21,021 nucleotides of DNA from Microcoleus sp. S13_C3. GTDB taxonomy: Bacteria; Cyanobacteriota; Cyanobacteriia; Cyanobacteriales; Microcoleaceae. Numbering within the stretch: the first letter of the stretch is position 1; each line of letters starts with the position of its first letter. This document shows, piece by piece, positions 1 to 17,523 of this stretch. A model generated the notes under the pieces. It searched no databases. It saw nothing but the letters and a program-made list of their open reading frames with translations, and had not been told where the DNA came from. The DNA is taken from the NCBI GenBank assembly GCA_036700905.1, contig JAUBPT010000012.1. The stretch is one strand, 5' to 3'. The translations under genes and the position numbers were made by a program.

Positions 1-350
1 AACGTAAACGGCACCTTGTATTTCACTGCCGATGACGGCATCAATGGTAATGAGTTGTGGAAAAGTGATGGGACAGCCGCTGGCACCGTCTTGGTCAAAG
101 ACATCAACCCAGGGATAAATAGTTCAAGTATTAGCAACTTCACGAACGTAAACGGTACCTTGTATTTCCAAGCCGATGACGGCATCAATGGTAAAGAGTT
201 GTGGAAAAGTGATGGAACAGCCGTCGGTACTGTCTTGGTCAAAGACTTCTTTTCAGGGGCTAATAGTTCAACCCCTAACAACCTCACGAACGTGAATGGT
301 AACTTGTATTTCACTGCCAATGACGGCATCAATGGTAATGAGTTGTGGAG
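1..350 (+). repeat. Three in-frame 144-bp units encoding ELWxxDGT repeats
   Basis: AACGT(A/G)AA(C/T)GG... recurs at 1, 145 and 289, a 144-bp (48-aa) period. Each unit encodes NVNGxLYFxAxDGINGxELW. Confidence 0.75.
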
Positions 351-5950: not shown

Positions 5951-6739
5951 TCAATCTCGCCATCCTCGATCGCGCAACCAAGCCTCTGCCCAAATTGTAT
6001 CGGCTTCTGACAGCGGTGGTATGACTTCCCAGTTGCGATAATCTATCTTGAGGTCGTAACTTGCTATGTCATAAATTTGATTGAATAATTCCTGCAAATT
6101 TATGACAGGTTCGGTATCGCCCGATCGCAGTGGTAAAGGAAAAGCAGGCAGCGGGTTCTGCACGTTAAAAGCGTACAAATCTGCTCTGGGACGGCGATTT
6201 CCCCGACACACCAAAACGCTATAGTGGCTTTCAATGTCATTGCCAATAACTGGCATTCTTTGACCGCGCCGCAATAAATCTATTTCAATTACATGAGTGC
6301 GACTGGATAAAATTTCTTCTCGCTTTTCTTCGTACATTTGCCGCCCTTTTCCTGTGCGCTTATTGCTAGGCGAGAGGATTTCAATCAGGGTGATTAGTTC
6401 TTGGTTTCCTCTTTCTCTAATTTCTAAATAGCCTTCCCGAACCTGGTATGGCATGGGAATATTTACTGTCAAGGGTTGTGTGGGTGGCGCTGCAACGGCT
6501 ACGTTTGATGTTATTAATTCGGTTGTAGTTCTTGGCTGAATTACGTTTACATCAGGAATGCCAATTGATAAATTGTCGTCAGCGGTTTCATAGATTCTCA
6601 CTTCCAATGAGACTAAATACTTAGGACGAAGTTGGGGAGACAAAAATCTGAAAATTTCACTAATTAACAAGTGATGTAGGGCTGGCCAGAGTTCGGGATG
6701 CTCTAAATACGGGTCCATACCGGGAAAGGGAGATGGCAT
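5951..6739 (-). CDS. DUF4058 family protein (Uma2-like, PD-(D/E)xK restriction-endonuclease fold)
   Basis: The N-terminus MPSPFPGMDPYLEHPELW is the DUF4058 hallmark as I remember it. IPDV...EILSPSNK matches the D...E-x-K nuclease motif of Uma2/DUF820 relatives. ATG at 6739 has an AAGGAG Shine-Dalgarno 8 nt upstream, so the TTG at 6760 in the ORF track is probably not the start. Confidence 0.8.
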   Translation of the reverse strand: MPSPFPGMDPYLEHPELWPALHHLLISEIFRFLSPQLRPKYLVSLEVRIYETADDNLSIGIPDVNVIQPRTTTELITSNVAVAAPPTQPLTVNIPMPYQVREGYLEIRERGNQELITLIEILSPSNKRTGKGRQMYEEKREEILSSRTHVIEIDLLRRGQRMPVIGNDIESHYSVLVCRGNRRPRADLYAFNVQNPLPAFPLPLRSGDTEPVINLQELFNQIYDIASYDLKIDYRNWEVIPPLSEADTIWAEAWLRDRGWRD

Positions 6740-6868
6740 TGATTTTACTCCTTGACTCAAGTCTATTTACAGTTTAGCAATGTTGTTTTGGGAAAATTAG
6801 GGGCGATCGCACTTCCGGTAAAATAGAATAATTCCTATTTGTGGAAGCGCGATCGCACTTTTCAACGC

Positions 6869-7111
6869 TTAAACTTCGATTGACAATTGCATCGGAATTG
6901 GCACGCTGTTTTCATCCAACACAGACACTGCATTCACGAACACAATTGTATGCGGGACTGCCGGCATTAAGCGGCGCAGTGCGTTCAAGTAAGATTCGGC
7001 ATCGGGGCGACGGGCGAAGCGGCCGACTGTTAACCGCTGACAGTTGGGGAGGTGGCGAATTAGATGCCAAGGTTGAAGTCGATCGCGATAAGTCGGTTCT
7101 TTTGGTATCAT
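6869..7111 (-). CDS. Small conserved cyanobacterial hypothetical protein (80 aa)
   Basis: ATG at 7111 is preceded by GGAAGGA. The sequence RLQPWHLIRHLPNCQRLTVGRFARRPDAESYLNALRRL...IVF resembles a small protein family I recall as widespread in cyanobacteria, which I could not verify. I prefer this ORF to the fully overlapping plus-strand ORF 6841-7113. Confidence 0.55.
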   Translation of the reverse strand: MIPKEPTYRDRLQPWHLIRHLPNCQRLTVGRFARRPDAESYLNALRRLMPAVPHTIVFVNAVSVLDENSVPIPMQLSIEV

Positions 7112-7193
7112 AGGAAAATCCTTCCCACTTTTGTGGGTGGTGAATGAAAGGCGATCGCCCTTGATTTATCAGGTCGGAGGGCGATCGCTTGTT

Positions 7194-7228
7194 TATAGTG
7201 TATATTCAACACGAATACTCGAGTGTTG
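7194..7228 (+). promoter_or_regulatory. Candidate -10 boxes and operator-like inverted repeat upstream of the HTH gene array
   Basis: TATAGT lies at 7194-7199 and TATATT at 7201-7206. CAACAC (7207-7212) - N10 - GTGTTG (7223-7228) sits 11 nt upstream of the first HTH start codon. I found no convincing -35 box. Confidence 0.3.
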
Positions 7229-7238
7229 TCAAGAGGGA

Positions 7239-7451
7239 ATGGGACGAATTAGGCTGCGAGTTCGAGAATTTGCTCAAGAGAAGGGTTGGAATCTCACAGA
7301 AGTCTCCAAAAGAACAGGTATTCCATATACCACGATCATTACCTATGCGAACTCTCAGGGTATGGCAACTGTAGATTACACAGCTTTGGACAAGATGGCC
7401 CGTGCGTTTGATATTGCGATCGAGGATTTAGTGGAAATTCTGGAACAGTAA
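7239..7451 (+). CDS. XRE/Cro-C1-type helix-turn-helix protein, 70 aa (array copy 1, type A)
   Basis: MGRIRLRVREFAQEKGWNLTEVSKRTGIPYTTIITYANSQGMATVDYTALDKMARAFDIAIEDLVEILEQ. The start is set at the internal ATG 7239 because all five paralogs begin MG(R/L)IRLRVRE. The 5' extension to 7131 has no paralog support. Confidence 0.85.
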   Translation: MGRIRLRVREFAQEKGWNLTEVSKRTGIPYTTIITYANSQGMATVDYTALDKMARAFDIAIEDLVEILEQ

Positions 7452-7471
7452 ACTGATTTGTCAGCGGGAAA

Positions 7472-7684
7472 ATGGGGTTAATTCGGTTGCGAGTTCGAGA
7501 ACTAGCGCAGGAGAAAGGCTGGACGCTGAAAGAAGTTTCCGACAGAACGGGAATTCCCTACAGCACGGTTAAAAAATACGCCCAAGCTCCTAAAATGGCA
7601 ACGGTGGACTACACGGCTTTGCAGAAACTTGCTGCTGTCTTCGATTTGATGATCGAAGATTTGGTTGAGGTTTTGGAAAATTAA
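7472..7684 (+). CDS. XRE/Cro-C1-type helix-turn-helix protein, 70 aa (array copy 2, type B)
   Basis: MGLIRLRVRELAQEKGWTLKEVSDRTGIPYSTVKKYAQAPKMATVDYTALQKLAAVFDLMIEDLVEVLEN. It starts exactly 233 bp after copy 1. Confidence 0.88.
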   Translation: MGLIRLRVRELAQEKGWTLKEVSDRTGIPYSTVKKYAQAPKMATVDYTALQKLAAVFDLMIEDLVEVLEN

Positions 7685-7704
7685 ACTGATTTGTCAGCGG
7701 GAAG

Positions 7705-7917
7705 ATGGGGTTAATTCGGTTGCGGGTTCGAGAACTAGCCCAAGAGAAGGGTTGGACGTTGAAAGAAGTTTCTGAGCGATCGGGCATTCCTTACAGTACC
7801 GTTAGAAGTTATGCCCATTCTCCCAAACTGGCAACTGTAGACTATACAGCTTTAAACAAAATGGCTCGCGTGTTTGATATTGCGATCGAAGATTTAGTGG
7901 AGATTTTGGAAGAGTAG
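7705..7917 (+). CDS. XRE/Cro-C1-type helix-turn-helix protein, 70 aa (array copy 3, type C, A/B mosaic)
   Basis: MGLIRLRVRELAQEKGWTLKEVSERSGIPYSTVRSYAHSPKLATVDYTALNKMARVFDIAIEDLVEILEE. The N-terminal half resembles type B and the C-terminal half resembles type A. Confidence 0.88.
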   Translation: MGLIRLRVRELAQEKGWTLKEVSERSGIPYSTVRSYAHSPKLATVDYTALNKMARVFDIAIEDLVEILEE

Positions 7918-7937
7918 GCTGATTTATCGTTGGGAAT

Positions 7938-8150
7938 ATGGGACGAATTAGACTGCGAGTTCGAGAACTTGCTCAAGAGAAGGGTTGGACTCTCAGGGAA
8001 GTCTCCAACAGAACGGGTATTCCATACACTACGATCGCCACCTATGCCAGTTCTCCAGGCATGGCTACCGTTGACTACACAGCTTTGGACAAGATGGCTC
8101 GTGCGTTCGATATTGCGATCGAAGATTTAGTTGAGATTTTGGAACAGTAA
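7938..8150 (+). CDS. XRE/Cro-C1-type helix-turn-helix protein, 70 aa (array copy 4, type A')
   Basis: MGRIRLRVRELAQEKGWTLREVSNRTGIPYTTIATYASSPGMATVDYTALDKMARAFDIAIEDLVEILEQ. It lies 699 bp downstream of copy 1. By eye, 16 codons differ synonymously and 7 non-synonymously between the two. Confidence 0.88.
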   Translation: MGRIRLRVRELAQEKGWTLREVSNRTGIPYTTIATYASSPGMATVDYTALDKMARAFDIAIEDLVEILEQ

Positions 8151-8170
8151 ACTGATTTGTCAGCGGGAAG

Positions 8171-8383
8171 ATGGGGCTAATACGGTTGCGAGTTCGAGAA
8201 CTAGCCCAGGAAAAGGGTTGGACGCTGAAAGAAGTCTCTGACAGAACGGGAATTCCCTACAGCACGGTTAAAAAATACGCCCAAGCTCCCAAAATGGCAA
8301 CCGTGGACTACACGGCTTTGCAGAAACTTGCTGAAGTCTTCGATGTGATGGTGGAAGACTTGGTTGAGGTTTTGGAACGGTAA
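8171..8383 (+). CDS. XRE/Cro-C1-type helix-turn-helix protein, 70 aa (array copy 5, type B')
   Basis: MGLIRLRVRELAQEKGWTLKEVSDRTGIPYSTVKKYAQAPKMATVDYTALQKLAEVFDVMVEDLVEVLER. It lies 699 bp downstream of copy 2. By eye, 11 codons differ synonymously and 4 non-synonymously. Confidence 0.88.
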   Translation: MGLIRLRVRELAQEKGWTLKEVSDRTGIPYSTVKKYAQAPKMATVDYTALQKLAEVFDVMVEDLVEVLER

Positions 8384-8421
8384 ACTGATTTGTGATTTAG
8401 TTTTTGCACTTCTTGCAACAG

Positions 8422-8474
8422 TCCGTCGGGGGTTGAAACCCCCGCCTCAAAGCTCAAGTCGTCTAAAGACGACT
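8422..8474 (+). repeat. Bipartite hairpin repeat element, copy b
   Basis: TCCGTCGGGGGTTGAAACCCCCGCCTCAAAGCTCAAGTCGTCTAAAGACGACT. Hairpin 1 is CGGGGG/CCCCCG and hairpin 2 is AGTCGTC/GACGACT. Confidence 0.75.
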
Positions 8475-8535
8475 GAAAAGGCGATCGATCTCCGCTTCAA
8501 TCCTTTTTTTGAAATTTTTAATCAATCCTTTCTTC

Positions 8536-8590
8536 AGTCCACAAAGCGTGGACTTTCGCTTTGAGGCAGGGGTTTCAACCCCTGCCGGAA
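8536..8590 (-). repeat. Bipartite hairpin repeat element, copy c (inverted relative to copy b)
   Basis: The reverse complement reads TTCCGGCAGGGGTTGAAACCCCTGCCTCAAAGCGAAAGTCCACGCTTTGTGGACT. Copies b and c face each other across a 61-bp spacer. Confidence 0.75.
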
Positions 8591-8697
8591 TCTGGCAACA
8601 AATGCAAGATATCAGTTCGATCGCATTAATGCGGATATTGGAATTTTCCGGTTGTAGATTAGAGTCAAGAGTTGTTCATTCTGCCGGAGTTATATTA

Positions 8698-9189
8698 ATG
8701 CCAATTAATCGTCTGTCTGACATAGAAGAGAACTTGGAATCGCTGCGAGAGCAATTAGGGGGCAAGGAGAAGGCTCGAGTTTTAGCACGATTAGAAGATA
8801 AAACCCTAATTCAACAGCAAATTAGAGAGCTATGTAAGGAGATTCAGGAAGAGGAAGAAAAGTATTGGCAGGTTCTCGCTCAGCAAACGAAAACGGTAGA
8901 AATTCCCGAACATGAGGCAGAGATTATTGTTGCCGAGATTGTCGAAGAAGTTGGGCAAATTCAAGTGCAGGGACAGTATTCAGAGGAAGTGCTTAAGATT
9001 TTGCAGGAGATTCGGGACAAGCTAAACCAACCGGGAGCAACAGCGGCCGCGAAACTTAAAGGCGTAATCTCAAGCATTCCGCCGTTTGTAGGAATTTCCA
9101 TAGAGGCAGAATTGGATACAGAGAATTTTTTACAGCAGCATTTCCCAACGTTTCGGAAGTGGTCTAAGGAATTAGCAAAAAAGTCCTAG
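8698..9189 (+). CDS. Coiled-coil protein of unknown function; probable N-terminal module of the downstream NB-ARC/TPR protein
   Basis: ATG at 8698 has GGAG 8 nt upstream. The ORF-track start at 8509 runs through repeat element c and is unlikely. MPINRLSDIEENLESLREQLGGKEKARVLARLEDKTLIQQQIRELCKEIQEEEEKYWQ looks coiled-coil. An acidic stretch follows, then a hydrophobic Gly/Ala/Pro-rich segment (GATAAAKLKGVISSIPPFVGISIEA). The ORF ends at TAG 9187-9189, immediately after A_AAA_AAG. Confidence 0.6.
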   Translation: MPINRLSDIEENLESLREQLGGKEKARVLARLEDKTLIQQQIRELCKEIQEEEEKYWQVLAQQTKTVEIPEHEAEIIVAEIVEEVGQIQVQGQYSEEVLKILQEIRDKLNQPGATAAAKLKGVISSIPPFVGISIEAELDTENFLQQHFPTFRKWSKELAKKS

Positions 9190-9293: not shown

Positions 9294-11717
9294 ATGCAGC
9301 AATTGCACGGATTGTTGCAGGATGGAAGGCGCGTTGCCATTGCCGCTGCGTCGGGAATGGGCGGCATCGGCAAGACAGAATTGGCATGGCAGTATGCAAC
9401 ATTTCACCGCGAGTGCAACACCTATCCAGCCGGGATTTGGTGGGTGTTTGTGCGGGAAATCGATTTAGCGCCGCAGGTGTTGCAGAAAGCGCTGCGAATG
9501 GGAATTCAGCCGCCGGATACTCTCGACAATCTGGAGGAACGGTTGCAATTTTGCTACGAAGAGTGGGCAAAACAAACCTCTGGCAATGCTCTGCTGGTAT
9601 TGGATGATGTCAACGATTACCGCACCGTGGAGCGGTTGCTGCCTAGAAATCCCCGCTTTAAAGTGTTGCTGACAGCGCGACAAATTGTGCCGTCGCCTGT
9701 GGGGTGTTTGCCGTTAAAAGTGTTGAAACCAAAGGCGGCGCTAAACTTGCTGTGGCTGACGGCAGAGGATTTGCCGGGAAACGGACTCGGACGGATTGAT
9801 GCCCAGCTTGAAGATGCTCAAGCGCTTTGTCAGTGGTTGGATTATTTGCCTTTGGGCATCGAACTGGTAGGGCGCCATCTGCGGCGCAAGCGGGCGCTCT
9901 CCTTGGCAGAAATGCTGCAACGGTTGCATAGTCAGCGATTGGAGGCGCGGGCATTGCAGGAGGCGGAAGCTGGGATGACGGCTAGGCGCGGAGTGGCGGC
10001 TGCCTTTGAGTTGAGTTGGGCGGAGTTGAACCCTCCGGCGCGGACGCTGGGGTGTCTGCTGAGCGTGTTTGCTCAGGCTCCGATTCCTTGGGAGTTGGTA
10101 GCCGAGTGTTTGCCGGGTTGGGATGAGGAGGAGTTGGAGGATTGTCAGGATTACGAACTGCTGGAACAGAGTTTGCTGTCGCTGGTGGAGGATGAAACCT
10201 CAGATTCGGGTCAATCTGGGCTGGTACAGCCACGCTATCAACTTCATGCTTTGATTCGGGAATTTTTTGCGGTCAAATTGCAGGGGCGCGCCGATGCTGA
10301 GGATTTGCGGAGAAGTTTTGCGGTGGCGCTGACAGACGTGGCGGAGACGATTCCGCAGACTGTAATGCTGGAGGTGCAGGAACGGGTGAAGGAGGCGCTG
10401 CCCCATTTGGAGGTGGTGGCGGAGCAATGGTCGCATTTACTGGAAGATAGTGCTGATGCTATGTGGTCTTTCACGGGCTTAGCGCGGGTTGCCGAGGAAC
10501 AGAGTTTGTGGGCAGAAGCGGAGAAATGGTTGAAAGCTTGCCTCCAGATGACAGAGAAACGCTGCGGAGCCGAACATCCCGATACGGCAGATAGTTTGAA
10601 CAATCTGGCAGCGCTGTACAAGGCAATAGGACGCTACCCGGAGGCGGAACCCTTGTGTATGCGATCGCTCTGGATCTGGGAGCAACAGCTCGGAGTCGAC
10701 CATCCCCATACGGCAACGAGTTTGAACAATCTGGCAGCGCTGTACGAGTCAATGGGACGCTACCCGGAAGCAGAACCCTTGTATGTGCGATCGCTCTGGA
10801 TCTGGGAGCAGCAGCTCGGAGTTGACCATCCCCATACGGCTCAGAGTTTGAACAATCTGGCAGGGCTGTACAGGGCAATGGGACGCTATTCGGAGGCGGA
10901 ACCCTTGTGTGTGCGATCGCTCGCCATCAGAGAACAGCAGCTTGGAGCCTATCATCCCGATACGGCTCAGAGTTTGAACAATCTGGCAGAGCTATACCGT
11001 GTAATGGGTTGCTACCTGGAGGCGGAACCCTTGTGTGTGCGATCGCTCGCCATTAGAGAGCAGCAGCTCGGAGCCTATCATCCCGATATCGCAACGAGTT
11101 TGAATAATCTGGGATTGCTGTACTATGCAATGGGATGCTACCCGAAGGCGAAACCCTTGTATGAGCGAGCGCTCGCCATTAGGGAGCAGAAGCTTGGAGC
11201 TGACCATCCCGATACCGCAACGAGTTTGGAAAATCTGGCAAATTTATACCGTGCAATGGATCGTTACTCGGAGGCGGAACCCTTGTTAGTGCGATCGCTC
11301 TCTATCTGTCAGCAGCAGCTCGGAGCCTACCATCCCTATACCGCAACGACTTTGAACAATCTGGCAGGGCTGTACAAGGCAATGGGTCGCTACCCGGAAG
11401 CAGAACCCTTGTATGTGCGATCGCTCTCGATCTGGGAGCAGCAACTCGGAGCCGACCATCCTCATACGGCATTGAGTTTGAACAATCTGGCAGGGCTGTA
11501 CGGTGCAATGGGTCGCTACCAGGAGGCGGAACGGTTTTTTCTGGGAGCATTAGAAATCTTGTTTAACCGATTGGGAGAAGATCATCCCGACACCCAAACC
11601 GTTTGGAGCAATTTCATTTATTTTCTCCAGCAGACCATATCAACTGGTCAAGACTCCCAACTTTCCCAGCATCCAGCAACGCAAGCAATGCTTCAGCAAC
11701 TTCGGGAGACGGAGTAG
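9294..11717 (+). CDS. NB-ARC domain / TPR-repeat STAND NTPase (NLR-like); 9294 is only the first ATG, and the frame is open and clearly coding from 9168
   Basis: The P-loop is GMGGIGKTELA, Walker B is LLVLDDV, KVLLTARQ is RNBS-B-like, YLPLGIELVG is GLPLA-like, and YQLHALIREF is MHD-like. About nine 42-aa TPR units of the kinesin-light-chain type follow (HPDTAxSLNNLAxLYxAMGRYxEAEPLxxRSLxIxEQQLG). Upstream of the ATG the same frame encodes ...YQLYDIPSELGSKNFVGRDEEMQQLH, the usual pre-P-loop FVGR-E-EL motif. There is no ATG, GTG or TTG between 9168 and 9293. Confidence 0.9.
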   Translation: MQQLHGLLQDGRRVAIAAASGMGGIGKTELAWQYATFHRECNTYPAGIWWVFVREIDLAPQVLQKALRMGIQPPDTLDNLEERLQFCYEEWAKQTSGNALLVLDDVNDYRTVERLLPRNPRFKVLLTARQIVPSPVGCLPLKVLKPKAALNLLWLTAEDLPGNGLGRIDAQLEDAQALCQWLDYLPLGIELVGRHLRRKRALSLAEMLQRLHSQRLEARALQEAEAGMTARRGVAAAFELSWAELNPPARTLGCLLSVFAQAPIPWELVAECLPGWDEEELEDCQDYELLEQSLLSLVEDETSDSGQSGLVQPRYQLHALIREFFAVKLQGRADAEDLRRSFAVALTDVAETIPQTVMLEVQERVKEALPHLEVVAEQWSHLLEDSADAMWSFTGLARVAEEQSLWAEAEKWLKACLQMTEKRCGAEHPDTADSLNNLAALYKAIGRYPEAEPLCMRSLWIWEQQLGVDHPHTATSLNNLAALYESMGRYPEAEPLYVRSLWIWEQQLGVDHPHTAQSLNNLAGLYRAMGRYSEAEPLCVRSLAIREQQLGAYHPDTAQSLNNLAELYRVMGCYLEAEPLCVRSLAIREQQLGAYHPDIATSLNNLGLLYYAMGCYPKAKPLYERALAIREQKLGADHPDTATSLENLANLYRAMDRYSEAEPLLVRSLSICQQQLGAYHPYTATTLNNLAGLYKAMGRYPEAEPLYVRSLSIWEQQLGADHPHTALSLNNLAGLYGAMGRYQEAERFFLGALEILFNRLGEDHPDTQTVWSNFIYFLQQTISTGQDSQLSQHPATQAMLQQLRETE
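10575..11600 (+). repeat. Tandem 126-bp repeats encoding the TPR array
   Basis: CATCCC(G/C)A recurs at 10575, 10701, 10827, 10953, 11079, 11205, 11331, 11457 and 11583, an exact 126-bp period. Confidence 0.9.
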
Positions 11718-14143: not shown

Positions 14144-14376
14144 TTTTTTTAAGAATTGTTAACGTTCTTTTGTTATTATGAGCCGATCGACTGCCACAAG
14201 TTACTCCTGAACCGCTCAAAAGATACGTATTTAACGAACCGCGAAGACGCCAAGGGCGCGTTCGGCGAAGCCGTTCCCGTTCCCCGCAGGGGTTCGGTGA
14301 AGGGTAGGGTAGGAAGAGAAAGAAGAAGATAGGTAATGCCTTGTTGGGTTCGGGAGGAGGCTGCAATAATAGTTAC

Positions 14377-15816
14377 ATGAAATGTCCTCGATGTGAATCT
14401 GACCAACTTCGTAAAAACGGCCGTCCCAACGGTCATCAGCGGTATCTTTGCAAAGCTTGTCGCAAACAATTTTTAGAGCCGCCCAGTCCGCAGTCTTTAA
14501 GTCGCCAATGCACGGAAACACGGTTAAGCGAAGCTATCCCGCATGAAATCGCCCCTGCAACCACCATAGAGTCAGGCGGGATTGGGATTTTGCTGTTAGA
14601 TGCCGAAAATCTGAAACTTAAGCTTAATACAGAACAATTTTTAGCGGGTTTGTGCGACTATCCCCTGCAAGTTAAAATTGCTTTTGCTAACTGGAAAAAT
14701 CCGAGTACGGGGAAGTTGGATGCTGAACTTTACGATCGCGGTTACGAACTGATTCACGTTCCGGGCGGTGCGAATAGTGCTGATGGTAAGATGATTGCTT
14801 TTGGCGCTGCTATTTTATATCGATATCGGGATGTGCGACAAGTTTTTGTCTGTTCTTCGGATGGTTTGTTAAATCATCTTTGCAATCAGTTGCAAAATCA
14901 GGGAGTGACTGTGTTTCGGGTGCGTCGGCAAAATTCGGTTTTGTCTGTAGAAAATTGTCAGAATGGTGAGAGCAAGCACTATTCTTGCGAAAGGGAAGAG
15001 GAAATCCCTAGTTTTGAAGAATTGGCTAATCAAGTTGCAGAGTTGTTGAAGGCTGAACACAAATCTATTGATGAGCGAATCGCTCGGTTTTATAGTGTGG
15101 CTGAGCTTTTTCAAGAGCGCCGTAATGTTGCGTTCAATTCTACAAATTCCCCAGCAGCAGCACTGGCGGAGTCAGCACAAAACCAACTTCCCCCGGTGCT
15201 TGAACCATCTTTGGCGACCGTTGCTGTTCCTCCAAATATTGCGGAGCAAAATTTGCCAGAAATAATACCGGCTGTCAATTCAAAGGCTATTGAGTCGCTG
15301 GATGTTTTAAAAAATATACTTGTAGAAATAATTGACTCTGCAAAAAATGAGTTGAAAGAGGATGCTATTCCTGTAACAAGAATTAAGAAAGTTTTTTTTG
15401 CTAAATATCACTCTCATGCTGATTTAATTGTAAAAAGCTTTTTGGGTAAAACTTCTAGTTTAATCAAATTTTTGCAGTTGCAATCAGCTACTTTTAAAAT
15501 AAAATTAATCGGTACAGAACATCAAGTGGGACTCGTTCAAAAACCCTCCGATTCAAAAATTGAATTATCTGCCGCCCTCGAAGCATCGGTAGCAAAAATT
15601 GTAATGGCATTAACTGCTGAATCTCCAGGTAGTTACATTCCGATTCCCCAGGTAGCCGGCGAATTTAAAAAGCAATACGGTCAACCAATTACTAAAAAGC
15701 TGAAATCGCTGGATTTGGACACCAAATTTGCCGATTTTTTGCAGTCCTGTAAAATATTTAAAGTTAAGAAAAAAGGTAAAATTTATGAAGTGGCGATCGC
15801 ACAGTCCGCTCCCTGA
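14377..15816 (+). CDS. Zn-ribbon / NYN (PIN-like RNase) / tandem OST-HTH (LOTUS) domain protein
   Basis: The start is set at ATG 14377 (MKCPRCESDQLRKNGRPNGHQRYLCKACRKQF), a CxxC-N17-CxxC ribbon like the InsA/IS1-type N-terminus. The NYN motifs are ILLLDAENL, FANW, IHVPGGANSADGKMI and VFVCSSDGLLNHLCNQLQNQGVTVFRV. Two C-terminal LOTUS-like modules are present (IPVTRIKKVFFAKYH...FKIKLIG and IPIPQVAGEFKKQYGQPI...FLQSCKIFKVKKKGKIYEVAI). Confidence 0.8.
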   Translation: MKCPRCESDQLRKNGRPNGHQRYLCKACRKQFLEPPSPQSLSRQCTETRLSEAIPHEIAPATTIESGGIGILLLDAENLKLKLNTEQFLAGLCDYPLQVKIAFANWKNPSTGKLDAELYDRGYELIHVPGGANSADGKMIAFGAAILYRYRDVRQVFVCSSDGLLNHLCNQLQNQGVTVFRVRRQNSVLSVENCQNGESKHYSCEREEEIPSFEELANQVAELLKAEHKSIDERIARFYSVAELFQERRNVAFNSTNSPAAALAESAQNQLPPVLEPSLATVAVPPNIAEQNLPEIIPAVNSKAIESLDVLKNILVEIIDSAKNELKEDAIPVTRIKKVFFAKYHSHADLIVKSFLGKTSSLIKFLQLQSATFKIKLIGTEHQVGLVQKPSDSKIELSAALEASVAKIVMALTAESPGSYIPIPQVAGEFKKQYGQPITKKLKSLDLDTKFADFLQSCKIFKVKKKGKIYEVAIAQSAP

Positions 15817-15856
15817 TGTATTTAAGAAATCAGGTTTCCAAGTTTCGGTCGAAAAA

Positions 15857-15934
15857 TTTAATCTATTATTAACCAAAATTTAAGACAAGCTTATTCTTTT
15901 ATTATTTAATCTATTATTAACCAAAATTTAAAAC
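15857..15934 (+). promoter_or_regulatory. Two copies of a three-unit Pho box (SphR/PhoB-type) upstream of pstS
   Basis: Box 1 is TTTAATCT-att-ATTAACCA-aaa-TTTAAGAC (15857-15886). Box 2 is TTTAATCT-att-ATTAACCA-aaa-TTTAAAAC (15905-15934). The TTAA cores sit on an 11-bp pitch and match the cyanobacterial 8-bp unit PyTTAAPyPy(T/A) with 3-bp linkers. The boxes are part of a 48-bp direct duplication (15857-15900 and 15905-15948). Confidence 0.7.
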
Positions 15935-16022
15935 AAGCTTATTCTTTTAGATCCCTTTCCTTGCAGATTTCAGTCTATCCTAGGTCGTAGATGTGCAAAG
16001 TCGGCTATTAAGGGAGAGGAGT

Positions 16023-17162: not shown

Positions 17163-17218
17163 ATTCCGGCAGGGATTTAAATCCCTGCCTCATAGCGAAA
17201 GTCCTCGCTATGAGGACT
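17163..17218 (+). repeat. Bipartite hairpin repeat element, copy d
   Basis: ATTCCGGCAGGGATTTAAATCCCTGCCTCATAGCGAAAGTCCTCGCTATGAGGACT. Confidence 0.8.
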
Positions 17219-17241
17219 AGGAATAATGACTGATGTAACAA

Positions 17242-17304
17242 GTTCGGCAGAGATTTAATCTCTACCTTATACCGAAAGTCCTCAAGTCCTCGCGAAGGAG
17301 AACT
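17242..17304 (+). repeat. Bipartite hairpin repeat element, copy e (degenerate second hairpin)
   Basis: GTTCGGCAGAGATTTAATCTCTACCTTATACCGAAAGTCCTCAAGTCCTCGCGAAGGAGAACT. Confidence 0.65.
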
Positions 17305-17365
17305 GGTAATAATAGACTATCCATAAAGTGGGTTTTTACCCAGATTTATTTTGGGGAATACCAAC

Positions 17366-17419
17366 AGTCCTCTTGAGAGGACTTTAGCTTTGAGGCGGGG
17401 GTTTAAACCCCCGCCGGAC
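17366..17419 (-). repeat. Bipartite hairpin repeat element, copy f
   Basis: The reverse complement reads GTCCGGCGGGGGTTTAAACCCCCGCCTCAAAGCTAAAGTCCTCTCAAGAGGACT. Confidence 0.8.
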
Positions 17420-17523
17420 TATGGGAATACCAGATCATCCGGCTGCCGGATAGCAGGATAAATGCGTACCCTACAAGCTTGTCTTTCGATCGAATATTTC
17501 GCTTTTTACGCAATAACTCGGCT

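What the first reader, a model, noticed from the sequence alone, without database searches (positions are those of the whole stretch)
7239..8394. Phased tandem array of five 70-aa XRE-type HTH genes with A-B-C-A'-B' higher-order structure
- **Array layout:** Five co-directional 213-bp genes are separated by 20-bp spacers, so start codons fall exactly 233 bp apart (7239, 7472, 7705, 7938, 8171). Each gene encodes only a Cro/C1-type HTH domain.
- **Higher-order repeat:** Copies 1 and 4, and copies 2 and 5, are each other's closest relatives at a 699-bp offset. Copy 3 is an A/B mosaic. This points to a three-gene unit that was itself duplicated.
- **Real genes, not an artefact:** The copies are not recent and not an assembly artefact. 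Copies 1 and 4 differ at 16 synonymous and 7 non-synonymous codons, and copies 2 and 5 at 11 synonymous and 4 non-synonymous codons (my counts by eye). All five keep intact frames and identical length, which argues for purifying selection on five separate proteins.
- **Where the proteins differ:** Between copies 1 and 4, six of the seven replacements fall in the helix 2 to helix 3 (recognition helix) segment, W(N/T)L(T/R)EVS(K/N)RTGIPYTTI(I/A)TYA(N/S)S(Q/P)G. Between copies 2 and 5 they fall in the C-terminal helix. This suggests diversification of DNA or partner specificity.
- **Possible role:** Arrays of small diversified paralogs are typical of immunity or regulator cassettes in conflict systems. 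I do not know of a described system built from a phased multi-copy XRE array directly upstream of an NLR-like STAND gene.
Basis: partly seen in the sequence, partly recalled or inferred. Interest (0 to 1): 0.85.

Follow-up and report, generated by a model that had tools for sequence, protein, structure and literature searches.

The report
Tandem repressor genes with swappable operators

Summary
Five intact 70-aa HTH_26/HTH_3 genes start exactly 233 bp apart. The pairings are 1/4 and 2/5, copy 3 is mosaic, and dN/dS is 0.09-0.18.

The interpretation needs changing.
- **Neighbour:** In 78 related loci, mostly Microcoleus and Tychonema, the array sits in one syntenic frame. Copy number is 1-5 and the period is 233 bp. 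The NB-ARC/TPR gene is one of many alternative cargoes in a variable, defence-rich stretch downstream. It is present in about a third of the loci that could be scored.
- **Constant partner:** An 80-aa gene of unknown function, here called orf80, lies about 127 bp upstream and is transcribed divergently.
- **Types and order:** Copies fall into old specificity classes A1, A4, B, Bn and C. They follow a cyclic order A→B→C.
- **Operator:** The first ("leader") gene is always preceded by a class-specific 16-bp palindrome. The palindrome lies inside the 17-nt spacer that follows an invariant TTGACA facing orf80.

My best reading is an autoregulated operon of mutually orthogonal XRE repressors that controls orf80. 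The array was probably built by collapse of tandem modules and is reshaped by unequal and inter-strain recombination. What the four non-leader copies do is unresolved. I found no published description of such arrays. I rate it a new variant of a known kind, of moderate to high interest.

The parts
6869..7111 (-). orf80: an 80-aa basic protein of unknown function and the constant divergent partner of the HTH array
   Evidence: It lies 125-131 bp upstream of the first HTH gene at 86-95% identity in nearly all syntenic loci. It gave 75 close homologues, all in the Microcoleus clade. A profile search finds 431 representative clusters. It has no significant Pfam, NCBIfam or PADLOC hit. The AF2 core has pLDDT >90 with a beta-beta-alpha-beta layout, and Foldseek finds no PDB match. 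Family members in other genera also sit divergent to an XRE HTH gene.
7124..7137 (.). CCCAC-N4-GTGGG hairpin in the presumed orf80 5' leader
   Evidence: Read directly from the sequence. The motif is conserved in the Geitlerinemataceae and Oscillatoria intergenic regions and in weaker form in Coleofasciculaceae.
7151..7188 (.). Stem-loop built from two HIP1 sites, GCGATCGCCCT-N16-AGGGCGATCGC. It marks the left edge of the class-specific DNA
   Evidence: The 11-nt arms are 100% complementary. The element is conserved across genera. Class-specific sequence begins just 3' of it.
7194..7206 (+). Candidate -10 boxes (TATAGT, TATATT) for the HTH operon. This is an inference only
   Evidence: Every class has an AT-rich -10-like hexamer just 5' of the palindrome. 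The strict consensus scan did not call it.
7209..7224 (.). Class-A1 operator candidate ACACGAATACTCGAGT (16-bp palindrome, 6 of 8 symmetric pairs here)
   Evidence: Palindromes occur only in front of leader genes of the matching class. Within the class there are compensatory variants: ACACGA..TCGTGT, ACTCGA..TCGAGT and this hybrid. Symmetry peaks only in this register.
7227..7232 (-). Invariant TGTCAA, which reads as TTGACA on the - strand. Putative -35 of the orf80 promoter, with the operator filling its 17-nt spacer and TTGAAT (7204-7209) in the -10 position
   Evidence: TTGACA is present in 86 of 86 leader regions across genera, whereas the adjacent palindromes differ. The promoter role is inferred.
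7239..7451 (+). HTH copy 1, the leader, class A1 (recognition helix TTIITYANS)
7472..7684 (+). HTH copy 2, class B (STVKKYAQAP)
7705..7917 (+). HTH copy 3, class C (STVRSYAHSP)
7938..8150 (+). HTH copy 4, class A4 (TTIATYASS)
8171..8383 (+). HTH copy 5, class B
7452..7471 (+). First of four 20-bp spacers (also 7685-7704, 7918-7937, 8151-8170), consensus ACTGATTTGTCAGCGGGAAG. Each is the 3' flank ACTGATTTGT joined to a leader-proximal TGTCA..GGGAA segment
   Evidence: Two B>C spacers elsewhere read ACTGATTTGT+CAAGTGCAAG, which is the C-leader proximal sequence.
8384..8393 (+). Terminal half-spacer ACTGATTTGT, the right end of the array
8404..8607 (.). MITE-like element with 57-nt inverted arms, abutting the array. 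It is not part of the module
   Evidence: Related copies occur in 37 loci, and a second partial copy lies in the window at about 17163-17420.

Best explanation
The five genes form an operon of paralogous 70-aa XRE/Cro-C1 repressors. The operon belongs to a conserved cyanobacterial two-gene module: a small basic protein (orf80 family) transcribed divergently from an HTH gene across a control region of about 127 bp.

**Shown by comparison**
- The HTH genes fall into old classes (A1, A4, B, Bn, C) that differ in the recognition helix.
- Whichever class is first in the array is preceded by its own 16-bp palindrome.
- That palindrome fills the 17-nt spacer after an invariant TTGACA facing orf80. 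It lies just downstream of a -10-like box facing the HTH genes.

**Inferred**
- The leader protein (A1 here) binds this site as a dimer. It represses both orf80 and its own operon.
- The classes are mutually orthogonal. That would keep paralogous modules in one genome insulated from each other.
- Copies 2-5 (B, C, A4, B) are co-transcribed and translated from retained initiation regions. They have no cognate site in cis.
- Most likely they act in trans on other modules of the family elsewhere in the genome, or they are recently orphaned repressors.

**Origin, partly shown**
- Arrays arise when tandem modules collapse by recombination at the shared TTGTCA motif. This deletes orf80 and the operator and leaves a 20-bp spacer.
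- Arrays are then resized and re-headed by unequal crossing-over and by inter-strain homologous exchange. Both preserve the cyclic order A→B→C.

The adjacent NB-ARC/TPR gene is cargo of a neighbouring variable region. It is not a partner of the array.
For: **Family and arrays**
- The family is widespread in filamentous cyanobacteria: 554 hits, nearly all 70 aa.
- In 78 loci there are 37 arrays of one copy, 20 of two, 21 of three, 4 of four and 2 of five. The start-to-start gap is 233 bp in 74 of 82 cases.
- Synteny runs ABC ATPase, DUF4058, orf80(-), array, variable DNA, UbiD.

**Classes and order**
- Three cross-strain classes, with sub-classes, are found.
- Adjacent-copy transitions are A>B 23, B>C 22 and C>A 15, against 10 non-cyclic transitions.

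**Operator**
- Operator class and leader helix class agree in every locus.
- The palindromes occur nowhere else in 932 kb.
- Symmetry is confined to one register, with compensatory arm changes inside class A1.
- TTGACA is invariant in 86 of 86 leader regions.
- The same layout occurs in Geitlerinemataceae, Oscillatoria and Coleofasciculaceae.
- Remote orf80-family members also pair with a divergent XRE gene.

**Selection**
- Non-leader copies have pN/pS of 0.09-0.12. Leaders have 0.065-0.16.

**Origin**
- Spacers retain leader-proximal sequence, including two that read ACTGATTTGT+CAAGTGCAAG.
- Loci or genomes with two modules carry complementary classes, such as A1-C|B and A4|B-C.
Against: - There are no expression or binding data. 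The promoter assignments are pattern-based. The -10 hexamers proposed for the minus strand mostly lack the conserved A at position 2, and the strict scan did not call the leader promoter.
- Operator and leader are only about 130 bp apart. Part of their concordance could be simple linkage.
- No cognate sites for copies 2-5 were found in the window or in any locus, so a trans role is unproven.
- All 14 disrupted copies are non-leaders. This fits partial dispensability.
- orf80 is truncated in a few loci where the HTH genes persist.
- The function of orf80 is unknown.
Confidence: 0.6

Rival explanations
1. One reading: the array is an immunity or regulator cassette functionally coupled to the downstream NB-ARC/TPR STAND gene. 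For example, the diversified HTH proteins would control or sense for it.
For: - The two are adjacent in this window.
- The NB-ARC domain starts at residue 4, so the STAND protein has no N-terminal effector or DNA-binding domain of its own.
- Thirteen other loci carry the window's NB-ARC downstream of an array.
Against: - An NB-ARC/TPR-family ORF is present in only 19 of 57 scorable loci. It occurs with any copy number, and long arrays exist without it.
- The same slot holds pAgo, NACHT, CHAT, AAA_15/DUF4435, RelE or nothing at all, with only 187 bp between array and UbiD.
- No class palindrome lies near the STAND gene.
- A MITE-like element and orf226 intervene.
Confidence: 0.06
2. Toxin-control (addiction-like) module. 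orf80 would be harmful when expressed, and the leader HTH would be its dedicated transcriptional repressor. The extra copies would be back-up or cross-protecting repressors.
For: - None of about 80 leader genes is truly disrupted, against 14 of 89 non-leaders.
- orf80 is sometimes truncated while the HTH genes persist.
- The module sits among TA and defence genes.
- orf80 is small, basic and tightly linked to a repressor across genera.
Against: - orf80 matches no toxin family in Pfam, NCBIfam or PADLOC, and matches no known fold.
- The divergent layout is not typical of type II TA systems.
- The extra copies have other specificities, so they could not repress this operator if the classes are orthogonal.
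Confidence: 0.2
3. Copies 2-5 are functionless leftovers. When tandem modules collapse, the downstream HTH genes lose their operator and orf80 partner. They then persist until they decay.
For: - There are no cognate sites in cis.
- 16% of non-leader copies are disrupted, against none of the leaders.
- At least 10 arrays end in truncated stubs of a next copy.
- Copy number varies freely among close relatives.
Against: - Non-leader copies show the same strong purifying selection as leaders, with pN/pS about 0.1.
- All five copies here are intact although copies 1/4 have dS of 0.58 and copies 2/5 have dS of 0.32.
- Initiation regions and the exact 70-aa length are kept in 158 of 171 copies.
Confidence: 0.2
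4. Multi-specificity immunity. The expressed set of repressors would silence incoming elements or alleles that carry any of the operator classes, as phage repressors give superinfection immunity.
For: - Discrete repressor/operator classes segregate at one locus, as in heteroimmune phages.
- The array lies at the edge of a defence-rich variable region.
Against: - No family member was found in IMG/VR viral contigs or in GenBank phages. Plasmids gave only generic XRE matches at about 40% identity.
- The palindromes were found only at this chromosomal module.
Confidence: 0.08
5. Assembly expansion of a single HTH gene.
For: Many related assemblies are short-read drafts.
Against: - Copies differ by 9-32% at the nucleotide level.
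- The same classes and order recur in dozens of independent assemblies and in two closed chromosomes.
Confidence: 0.01

Closest known systems
Lambdoid phage immunity regions (cI - OR - cro) and their heteroimmune variants
   Same: - A small XRE/Cro-C1 HTH repressor and a second small gene are transcribed divergently from a short control region with palindromic operators that overlap promoter elements.
- Discrete repressor/operator specificity classes occupy the same locus in related genomes.
- The comparison to the phage systems rests on my general knowledge.
   Different: - The module is chromosomal and is not in a prophage. It is absent from the viral and phage collections.
- There is a single 16-bp site rather than tripartite operators.
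- The partner orf80 is not an HTH protein.
- The repressor gene is multiplied into an array of different specificities.
Controller (C) proteins of restriction-modification systems and their C-boxes
   Same: - Proteins of about 70-80 aa of the XRE type sit just downstream of their own palindromic site.
- Several specificity groups exist and do not cross-react. This point is from my general knowledge.
   Different: - No restriction or modification genes are attached.
- The regulated neighbour is a divergent 80-aa gene.
- C proteins are not known to me as tandem arrays.
Arrays of orphan immunity genes in polymorphic toxin loci (CDI, Rhs, T6SS)
   Same: - Tandem, co-directional small paralogues of different specificity.
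- Copy number varies among strains, arrays are shaped by recombination, and they lie next to conflict genes.
   Different: - Those proteins neutralise toxins by protein-protein binding. These are DNA-binding HTH domains with cognate DNA sites.
- No toxin or effector cassettes are interleaved.
- The order here is strictly cyclic.
SinR and DdrO-type XRE repressors (closest solved structures)
   Same: Weak but detectable sequence similarity over the whole HTH domain: 6jq1 and 6rnz (DdrO) at E about 2e-3, and SinR at E about 7e-3.
   Different: - They are distant relatives, and these proteins are only the bare domain.
- The partners differ: an antagonist (SinI) for SinR and a protease (IrrE) for DdrO, from my general knowledge. 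Neither has a relative here.

Membership tests
XRE / Cro-C1 helix-turn-helix DNA-binding domain (Pfam HTH_26 PF13443, HTH_3 PF01381) | The sequence matches the domain model above the curated gathering score | tested here: met
   All five copies score 35-40 bits against HTH_26 (cut-off 22) and 25-33 bits against HTH_3 (cut-off 23).
XRE / Cro-C1 helix-turn-helix DNA-binding domain (Pfam HTH_26 PF13443, HTH_3 PF01381) | Binds a specific, usually palindromic, DNA site as a dimer | not testable with these tools
   Only indirect evidence is available. Class-specific 16-bp palindromes covary with the recognition helix.
Type II toxin-antitoxin antitoxin (HigA / HipB / MqsA-like XRE antitoxins) | Encoded in one operon with, and next to, a cognate toxin gene | tested here: not met
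   The genes are separated only by 20-bp spacers. The sole constant neighbour, orf80, is divergent and matches no toxin family. The HipB model scores 13-15 bits against a cut-off of 79.
Phage CI/Cro immunity region | Divergent regulatory genes flank operators that overlap their promoters | tested here: inconclusive
   The layout and the operator position within a TTGACA-N17 spacer fit. However, the promoters are only pattern-based and the -10 is weak.
Phage CI/Cro immunity region | Located in a phage or prophage genome | tested here: not met
   The flanks are an ABC ATPase, DUF4058, UbiD and pst genes. No relatives were found in IMG/VR or in GenBank phages.
R-M controller (C) protein | Adjacent restriction endonuclease and/or methyltransferase genes under its control | tested here: not met
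   No such genes occur in the window or in the conserved frame of the 78 loci.
Component of a STAND/NLR (NB-ARC-TPR) defence system | Conserved co-occurrence and a fixed gene order with the STAND NTPase | tested here: not met
   An NB-ARC/TPR-family ORF is present in 19 of 57 scorable loci, and the window's NB-ARC matched in 14 of 78. Arrays of every size occur with and without it. There are no significant PADLOC hits for the HTH proteins.
Higher-order tandem repeat (multi-unit period maintained by unequal recombination) | Distinct unit types recur in a fixed order, so that units one super-period apart are the most alike | tested here: met
   Copies 1/4 and 2/5 are closest at a 699-bp offset. 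Of 70 typed adjacent pairs in 78 loci, 60 follow A>B>C>A.

The most novel reading that the evidence does not exclude
The array is an expressed library of mutually orthogonal minimal repressors. It would give the cell control over, or compatibility with, every allelic class of the orf80 switch circulating in the population. That would amount to a chromosomal, recombination-driven 'multi-immunity' or kin-compatibility system sitting at the gate of a defence-gene hotspot, with orf80 as its so far unknown effector.
Probability: 0.12. Interest if true: 0.85.

Novelty: new variant of a known kind. Interest (0 to 1): 0.62.

Why it matters
**A natural specificity series.** If the inference holds, this locus offers at least five orthogonal repressor/operator pairs of minimal size: 70-aa proteins and 16-bp sites. 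Some pairs differ by only a handful of residues. A1 and A4 differ at 7 residues, and their half-sites are ACACGA and TTACGA. That would be a ready-made system for studying how DNA-binding specificity evolves. It would also be a possible parts kit for cyanobacterial synthetic biology.

**An unusual genome dynamic in bacteria.** The locus documents a gene-level higher-order repeat with a conserved cyclic order. It is resized and re-headed among closely related strains.

**A new target for study.** The work defines an unstudied, widespread cyanobacterial module, the orf80 family plus a divergent XRE repressor. Its function is open.

**A practical correction.** A tempting 'XRE array + NLR' defence-system hypothesis turns out to be a coincidence of neighbourhood.

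Tried and rejected
- **Metagenome scan for the class-C palindrome.** I scanned for TGATACGTTCGTATCA to look for operator sites away from the module. None had the adjacent TGTCAA. It was uninformative, and it used the only metagenome scan.
- **Mobile-element origin.** No relatives were found in IMG/VR or in GenBank phages. Plasmids gave only generic XRE matches at about 40% identity.
- **orf80 identity.** Pfam and PADLOC gave no hit, and the only NCBIfam hit (TIGR03087, 20.9 bits against a cut-off of 316.65) was far below threshold. The first AF2 model, from 30 close homologues, was poor (pLDDT 58). A 140-sequence alignment gave a confident core, but Foldseek against the PDB found nothing better than E = 0.6. 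I did not run the viral fold library because no viral link exists.
- **Deeper higher-order repeat.** I tested whether B sub-variants depend on the preceding A sub-class. There is no association, so the copies are mosaic.
- **Spacer motif as an operator.** I considered CTGA-N4-TCAG. It is rejected because the symmetry is lost in the C>A spacers and the motif is far shorter than the class palindromes.
- **Known RNAs.** Rfam and tRNA scans of the window found nothing.
- **Literature.** Four full-text searches found no description of such arrays or of the module. Kaur et al. 2020 (PMC7159879) mentions HTH only as an effector or antitoxin domain.
- **Limit reached.** The genome-contig scan returned only the best 80 of 140 hits. 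I therefore could not establish the full complement of classes per genome.
Full report
**1.

- The + strand carries five ORFs of 213 bp including the stop, at 7239, 7472, 7705, 7938 and 8171. They are separated by 20-bp spacers.
- Tandem Repeats Finder reports one array at 7239-8393 with period 233 and 5.0 copies.
- Each product is 70 aa and passes the Pfam gathering scores for HTH_26 and HTH_3.
- Copies 1/4 are 86.9% identical at the nucleotide level and copies 2/5 are 91.1% identical. All other pairs are 68-78%.
- Copy 3 resembles copies 2/5 over its 5' two-thirds and copies 1/4 over its 3' third.
Nei-Gojobori dN/dS is 0.085-0.178 for all ten pairs, with dS of 0.58 for 1/4 and 0.32 for 2/5.
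- The copies are too divergent to be an assembly expansion.

**2. Context in the window**

- Upstream lie RTX/Ig-like proteins, a small conserved protein, an ABC ATPase and a DUF4058 gene on the - strand. Next comes an 80-aa ORF on the - strand at 6869-7111, which I call orf80.
- Downstream lie a MITE-like inverted repeat (8404-8607), a 226-aa ORF with no domain hit, and an 807-aa NB-ARC + TPR protein. Beyond these are UbiD on the - strand, a NYN/Zn-ribbon protein and a pst phosphate transporter.
- The STAND gene is therefore close to the array but not directly adjacent.

**3. Related loci change the picture**

- The HTH family has hundreds of members in filamentous cyanobacteria, nearly all exactly 70 aa.
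- A scan of one genome per species returned 78 loci, mostly Microcoleus and Tychonema.
- A family HMM finds 37 arrays of one copy, 20 of two, 21 of three, 4 of four and 2 of five. The start-to-start distance is 233 bp in 74 of 82 cases.
- Of 171 copies, 158 are intact 70-aa ATG ORFs.
- Two closed chromosomes carry three-copy arrays.
- Nearly all loci share one frame: ABC ATPase, DUF4058(-), orf80(-), array, variable DNA, UbiD(-).
- orf80 always lies 125-131 bp upstream, is divergent, and is 86-95% identical.
- An NB-ARC/TPR-family ORF occurs in 19 of 57 loci where the interval to UbiD could be scored, and the window's own NB-ARC matched in 14 of 78. It occurs beside arrays of any size.
- The interval ranges from 187 bp to 7.6 kb. 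Elsewhere it holds:
  - DUF6887 proteins;
  - RelE-like toxins;
  - NACHT-NNH2-HEAT proteins;
  - AAA_15 plus DUF4435;
  - CHAT-TPR proteins;
  - a kinase-FGE protein;
  - Uma2 nucleases;
  - a class II pAgo with its Aga partner.
- The array therefore borders a variable stretch rich in defence-type genes. It has no specific tie to the STAND gene.

**4. Classes and cyclic order**

- Clustering all intact copies gives three large cross-strain classes: A (54 copies, window copies 1 and 4), B (52 copies, window copies 2 and 5) and C (38 copies, window copy 3). A few minor types come from other genera.
- By recognition-helix signature, A splits into A1 (TTIITYANS) and A4 (TTIATYA[S/N]S). B splits into B (STVKKYAQ) and Bn (STVKNYAQ).
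- The classes are old paralogues shared among strains. They are not products of local duplication.
- Arrays are windows on a cyclic series: C-A-B, A-B-C, B-C-A, A-B, B-C, C-A, A-B-C-A-B and so on.
- Of 70 typed adjacent pairs, 60 are A>B, B>C or C>A. Most exceptions skip one unit.
- The window reads A1-B-C-A4-B. Another five-copy array reads A4-B-C-A1-B.

**5. The leader gene carries a matching palindrome**

The roughly 45 bp upstream of the first gene differ by class. Each class has a 16-bp palindrome:

| Class | Palindrome |
|---|---|
| A1 | ACACGA-ATAC-TCG(T/A)GT |
| A4 | ATTACGA-N4-TCGTAAT |
| B | AG(A/C)TATG-AG-CATAGCT |
| Bn | AGC(C/T)AAA-N-ACGTAGCT |
| C | TGATACG-TT-CGTATC(A/G) |

- Minor types in other genera have palindromes of their own.
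- Helix class and palindrome class agree in every locus.
- In 932 kb of locus DNA the palindromes occur only directly in front of a leader gene of the matching class. This includes the second modules in L025, L053 and L058.
- Dyad symmetry appears only in one register. There, 33 of 65 unique regions have at least 7 of 8 Watson-Crick pairs, against about 2 of 8 in other registers.
- Inside class A1 both arms change together: ACACGA..TCGTGT against ACTCGA..TCGAGT. The window has the hybrid form at 7209-7224.
These data support that idea and make it concrete.
- One caveat applies. Operator and helix are only about 130 bp apart, so linkage contributes to the concordance.

**6. Control-region architecture**

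- An invariant TGTCAAG lies 1-2 nt 3' of the palindrome (window 7227-7233).
- On the - strand this reads TTGACA, and it is present in 86 of 86 leader regions across genera.
- The palindrome fills the following 17 nt. After it come TTTAAT, TTGAAT or TTTTAA-type hexamers.
- I infer a promoter facing orf80 with the operator in its spacer. I also infer a -10-like box (TATAGT/TATATT at 7194-7206) facing the HTH genes, with the operator over the start site.
- Both promoters are pattern-based. The minus-strand -10 is weak, and the consensus scan missed the leader promoter.
- Further left lie a HIP1-based stem-loop (7151-7188) and a CCCAC/GTGGG hairpin (7124-7137). The stem-loop is conserved in Geitlerinemataceae, Oscillatoria and Coleofasciculaceae, and the hairpin is clearest in the first two.

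**7. The partner gene**

- orf80 has no significant Pfam, NCBIfam or PADLOC hit.
- A profile search finds 431 representative clusters. They share the core Y-R-x-R-L-x-P-W-C-I-I-R...R-F-R-R-R-N-D-A-E, which is not in Pfam.
- A deep alignment gives a confident beta-beta-alpha-beta core. It has no PDB neighbour.
- Members in other genera also sit divergent to the 70-aa HTH gene at about 130 bp. Remote members sit divergent to other XRE genes.
- The conserved unit is therefore orf80 family + XRE repressor. The Microcoleus clade has multiplied the repressor.

**8. Non-leader copies**

- Non-leader copies have no palindrome of their own, because the spacers are only 20 bp.
- Their pN/pS is 0.09-0.12, which equals the leader range of 0.065-0.16.
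- All 14 disrupted copies are non-leaders.
- At least 10 arrays end in a stub of the next copy, 19-22 nt long.
- Loci or genomes with two modules carry complementary sets: A1-C|B, A4|B-C and B|A1-C. This suggests that A, B and C coexist as insulated paralogues.
- I could not establish per-genome complements, because only 80 of the 140 genome hits were returned.

**9. How arrays form**

- The spacer ACTGATTTGTCAGCGGGAAG is the 3' flank ACTGATTTGT joined to a leader-proximal TGTCA..GGGAA segment.
- Two B>C spacers read ACTGATTTGT+CAAGTGCAAG. This keeps the C-leader-specific sequence.
- This fits recombination at the shared TTGTCA motif between tandem modules, which deletes orf80 and the operator.
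- Exchange between a leader copy from one strain and the homologous internal copy of another would re-head an array and keep the cyclic order. This last step is inference.

**10. Comparison and verdict**

- The module works like a phage immunity region or an R-M controller system: a small XRE repressor, its own palindrome and discrete specificity classes.
- It fails the membership tests for both families. It is chromosomal, absent from phage collections, and has no R-M genes.
- It is not a type II antitoxin array, because no toxins are present.
- It is not a STAND system component.
- I found no published description.
- I rate it a new variant of a known kind. It is interesting for the orthogonal repressor/operator series and for the gene-level higher-order repeat. 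The function of orf80 and of the extra copies is unresolved.

Noticed in passing
window 8394-8620 and about 17163-17420: A MITE-like element of about 200 bp with 57-nt inverted arms abuts the array. A second partial copy lies near the pst genes. Related copies occur in 37 of the related loci, on either side of the module.
   Followed up: partly
window 8509-9189 and 9294-11717: A 226-aa ORF with no domain hit travels together with the NB-ARC/TPR gene in most loci that have the latter. The NB-ARC domain starts at residue 4, so the STAND protein lacks an N-terminal effector domain. The small ORF may be its separate partner.
   Followed up: partly
window 5951-6760 (- strand): The DUF4058 gene next to orf80 occurs as two deeply divergent allele groups among close relatives, at about 62-72% and 84-97% aa identity to the window. 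The groups segregate independently of the HTH leader class.
   Followed up: no
related loci L003-L078, between the array and UbiD: The interval is a cargo hotspot of 187 bp to 7.6 kb. Its contents include a class II pAgo with its Aga partner (L063), NACHT-NNH2-HEAT (L054), CHAT-TPR (L003), AAA_15 + DUF4435 (L066, L037), RelE-like toxins, and DUF6887 proteins.
   Followed up: partly
window 7151-7188 and 7124-7137: A stem-loop made of two HIP1 (GCGATCGC) sites and a CCCAC/GTGGG hairpin lie in the presumed orf80 leader. The stem-loop is conserved at the nucleotide level in three other cyanobacterial families, and the hairpin is clearest in two of them. Its role is unknown.
   Followed up: no
L022:7998-8000 (M. 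vaginatus HSN003, closed genome): The second copy of this C-A1-B array has AGG in place of the ATG start codon. This is either a fresh inactivation or a sequencing error.
   Followed up: no
L007, L010, L013, L023, L036, L040, L072 and others, just 3' of the last copy: Many arrays end with a full spacer plus the first 19-22 nt of a further copy. This recurrent right-hand breakpoint lies after ...GGTTGC.
   Followed up: partly
window 14341-15816: The NYN / InsA-type zinc-ribbon protein downstream of UbiD is unusually variable among relatives, at 55-98% identity. The flanking UbiD is 97-100% identical.
   Followed up: no
window 1-349, 1087-1888, 10565-11532, 15853-15949: Other tandem repeats are present. 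Periods of 144 bp and 273 bp lie in the RTX/Ig-like gene, and 126/378-bp TPR repeats lie in the STAND gene. An AT-rich 22/48-bp repeat lies upstream of the phosphate-binding protein gene.
   Followed up: no
window 7437-7464 and 8136-8163 (- strand): The spacers keep CTGACA followed 16 nt later by CAGAAT or CAAAAT on the - strand. The scan calls these promoter-like. They may be relics of the leader-region TTGACA or weak antisense promoters.
   Followed up: no
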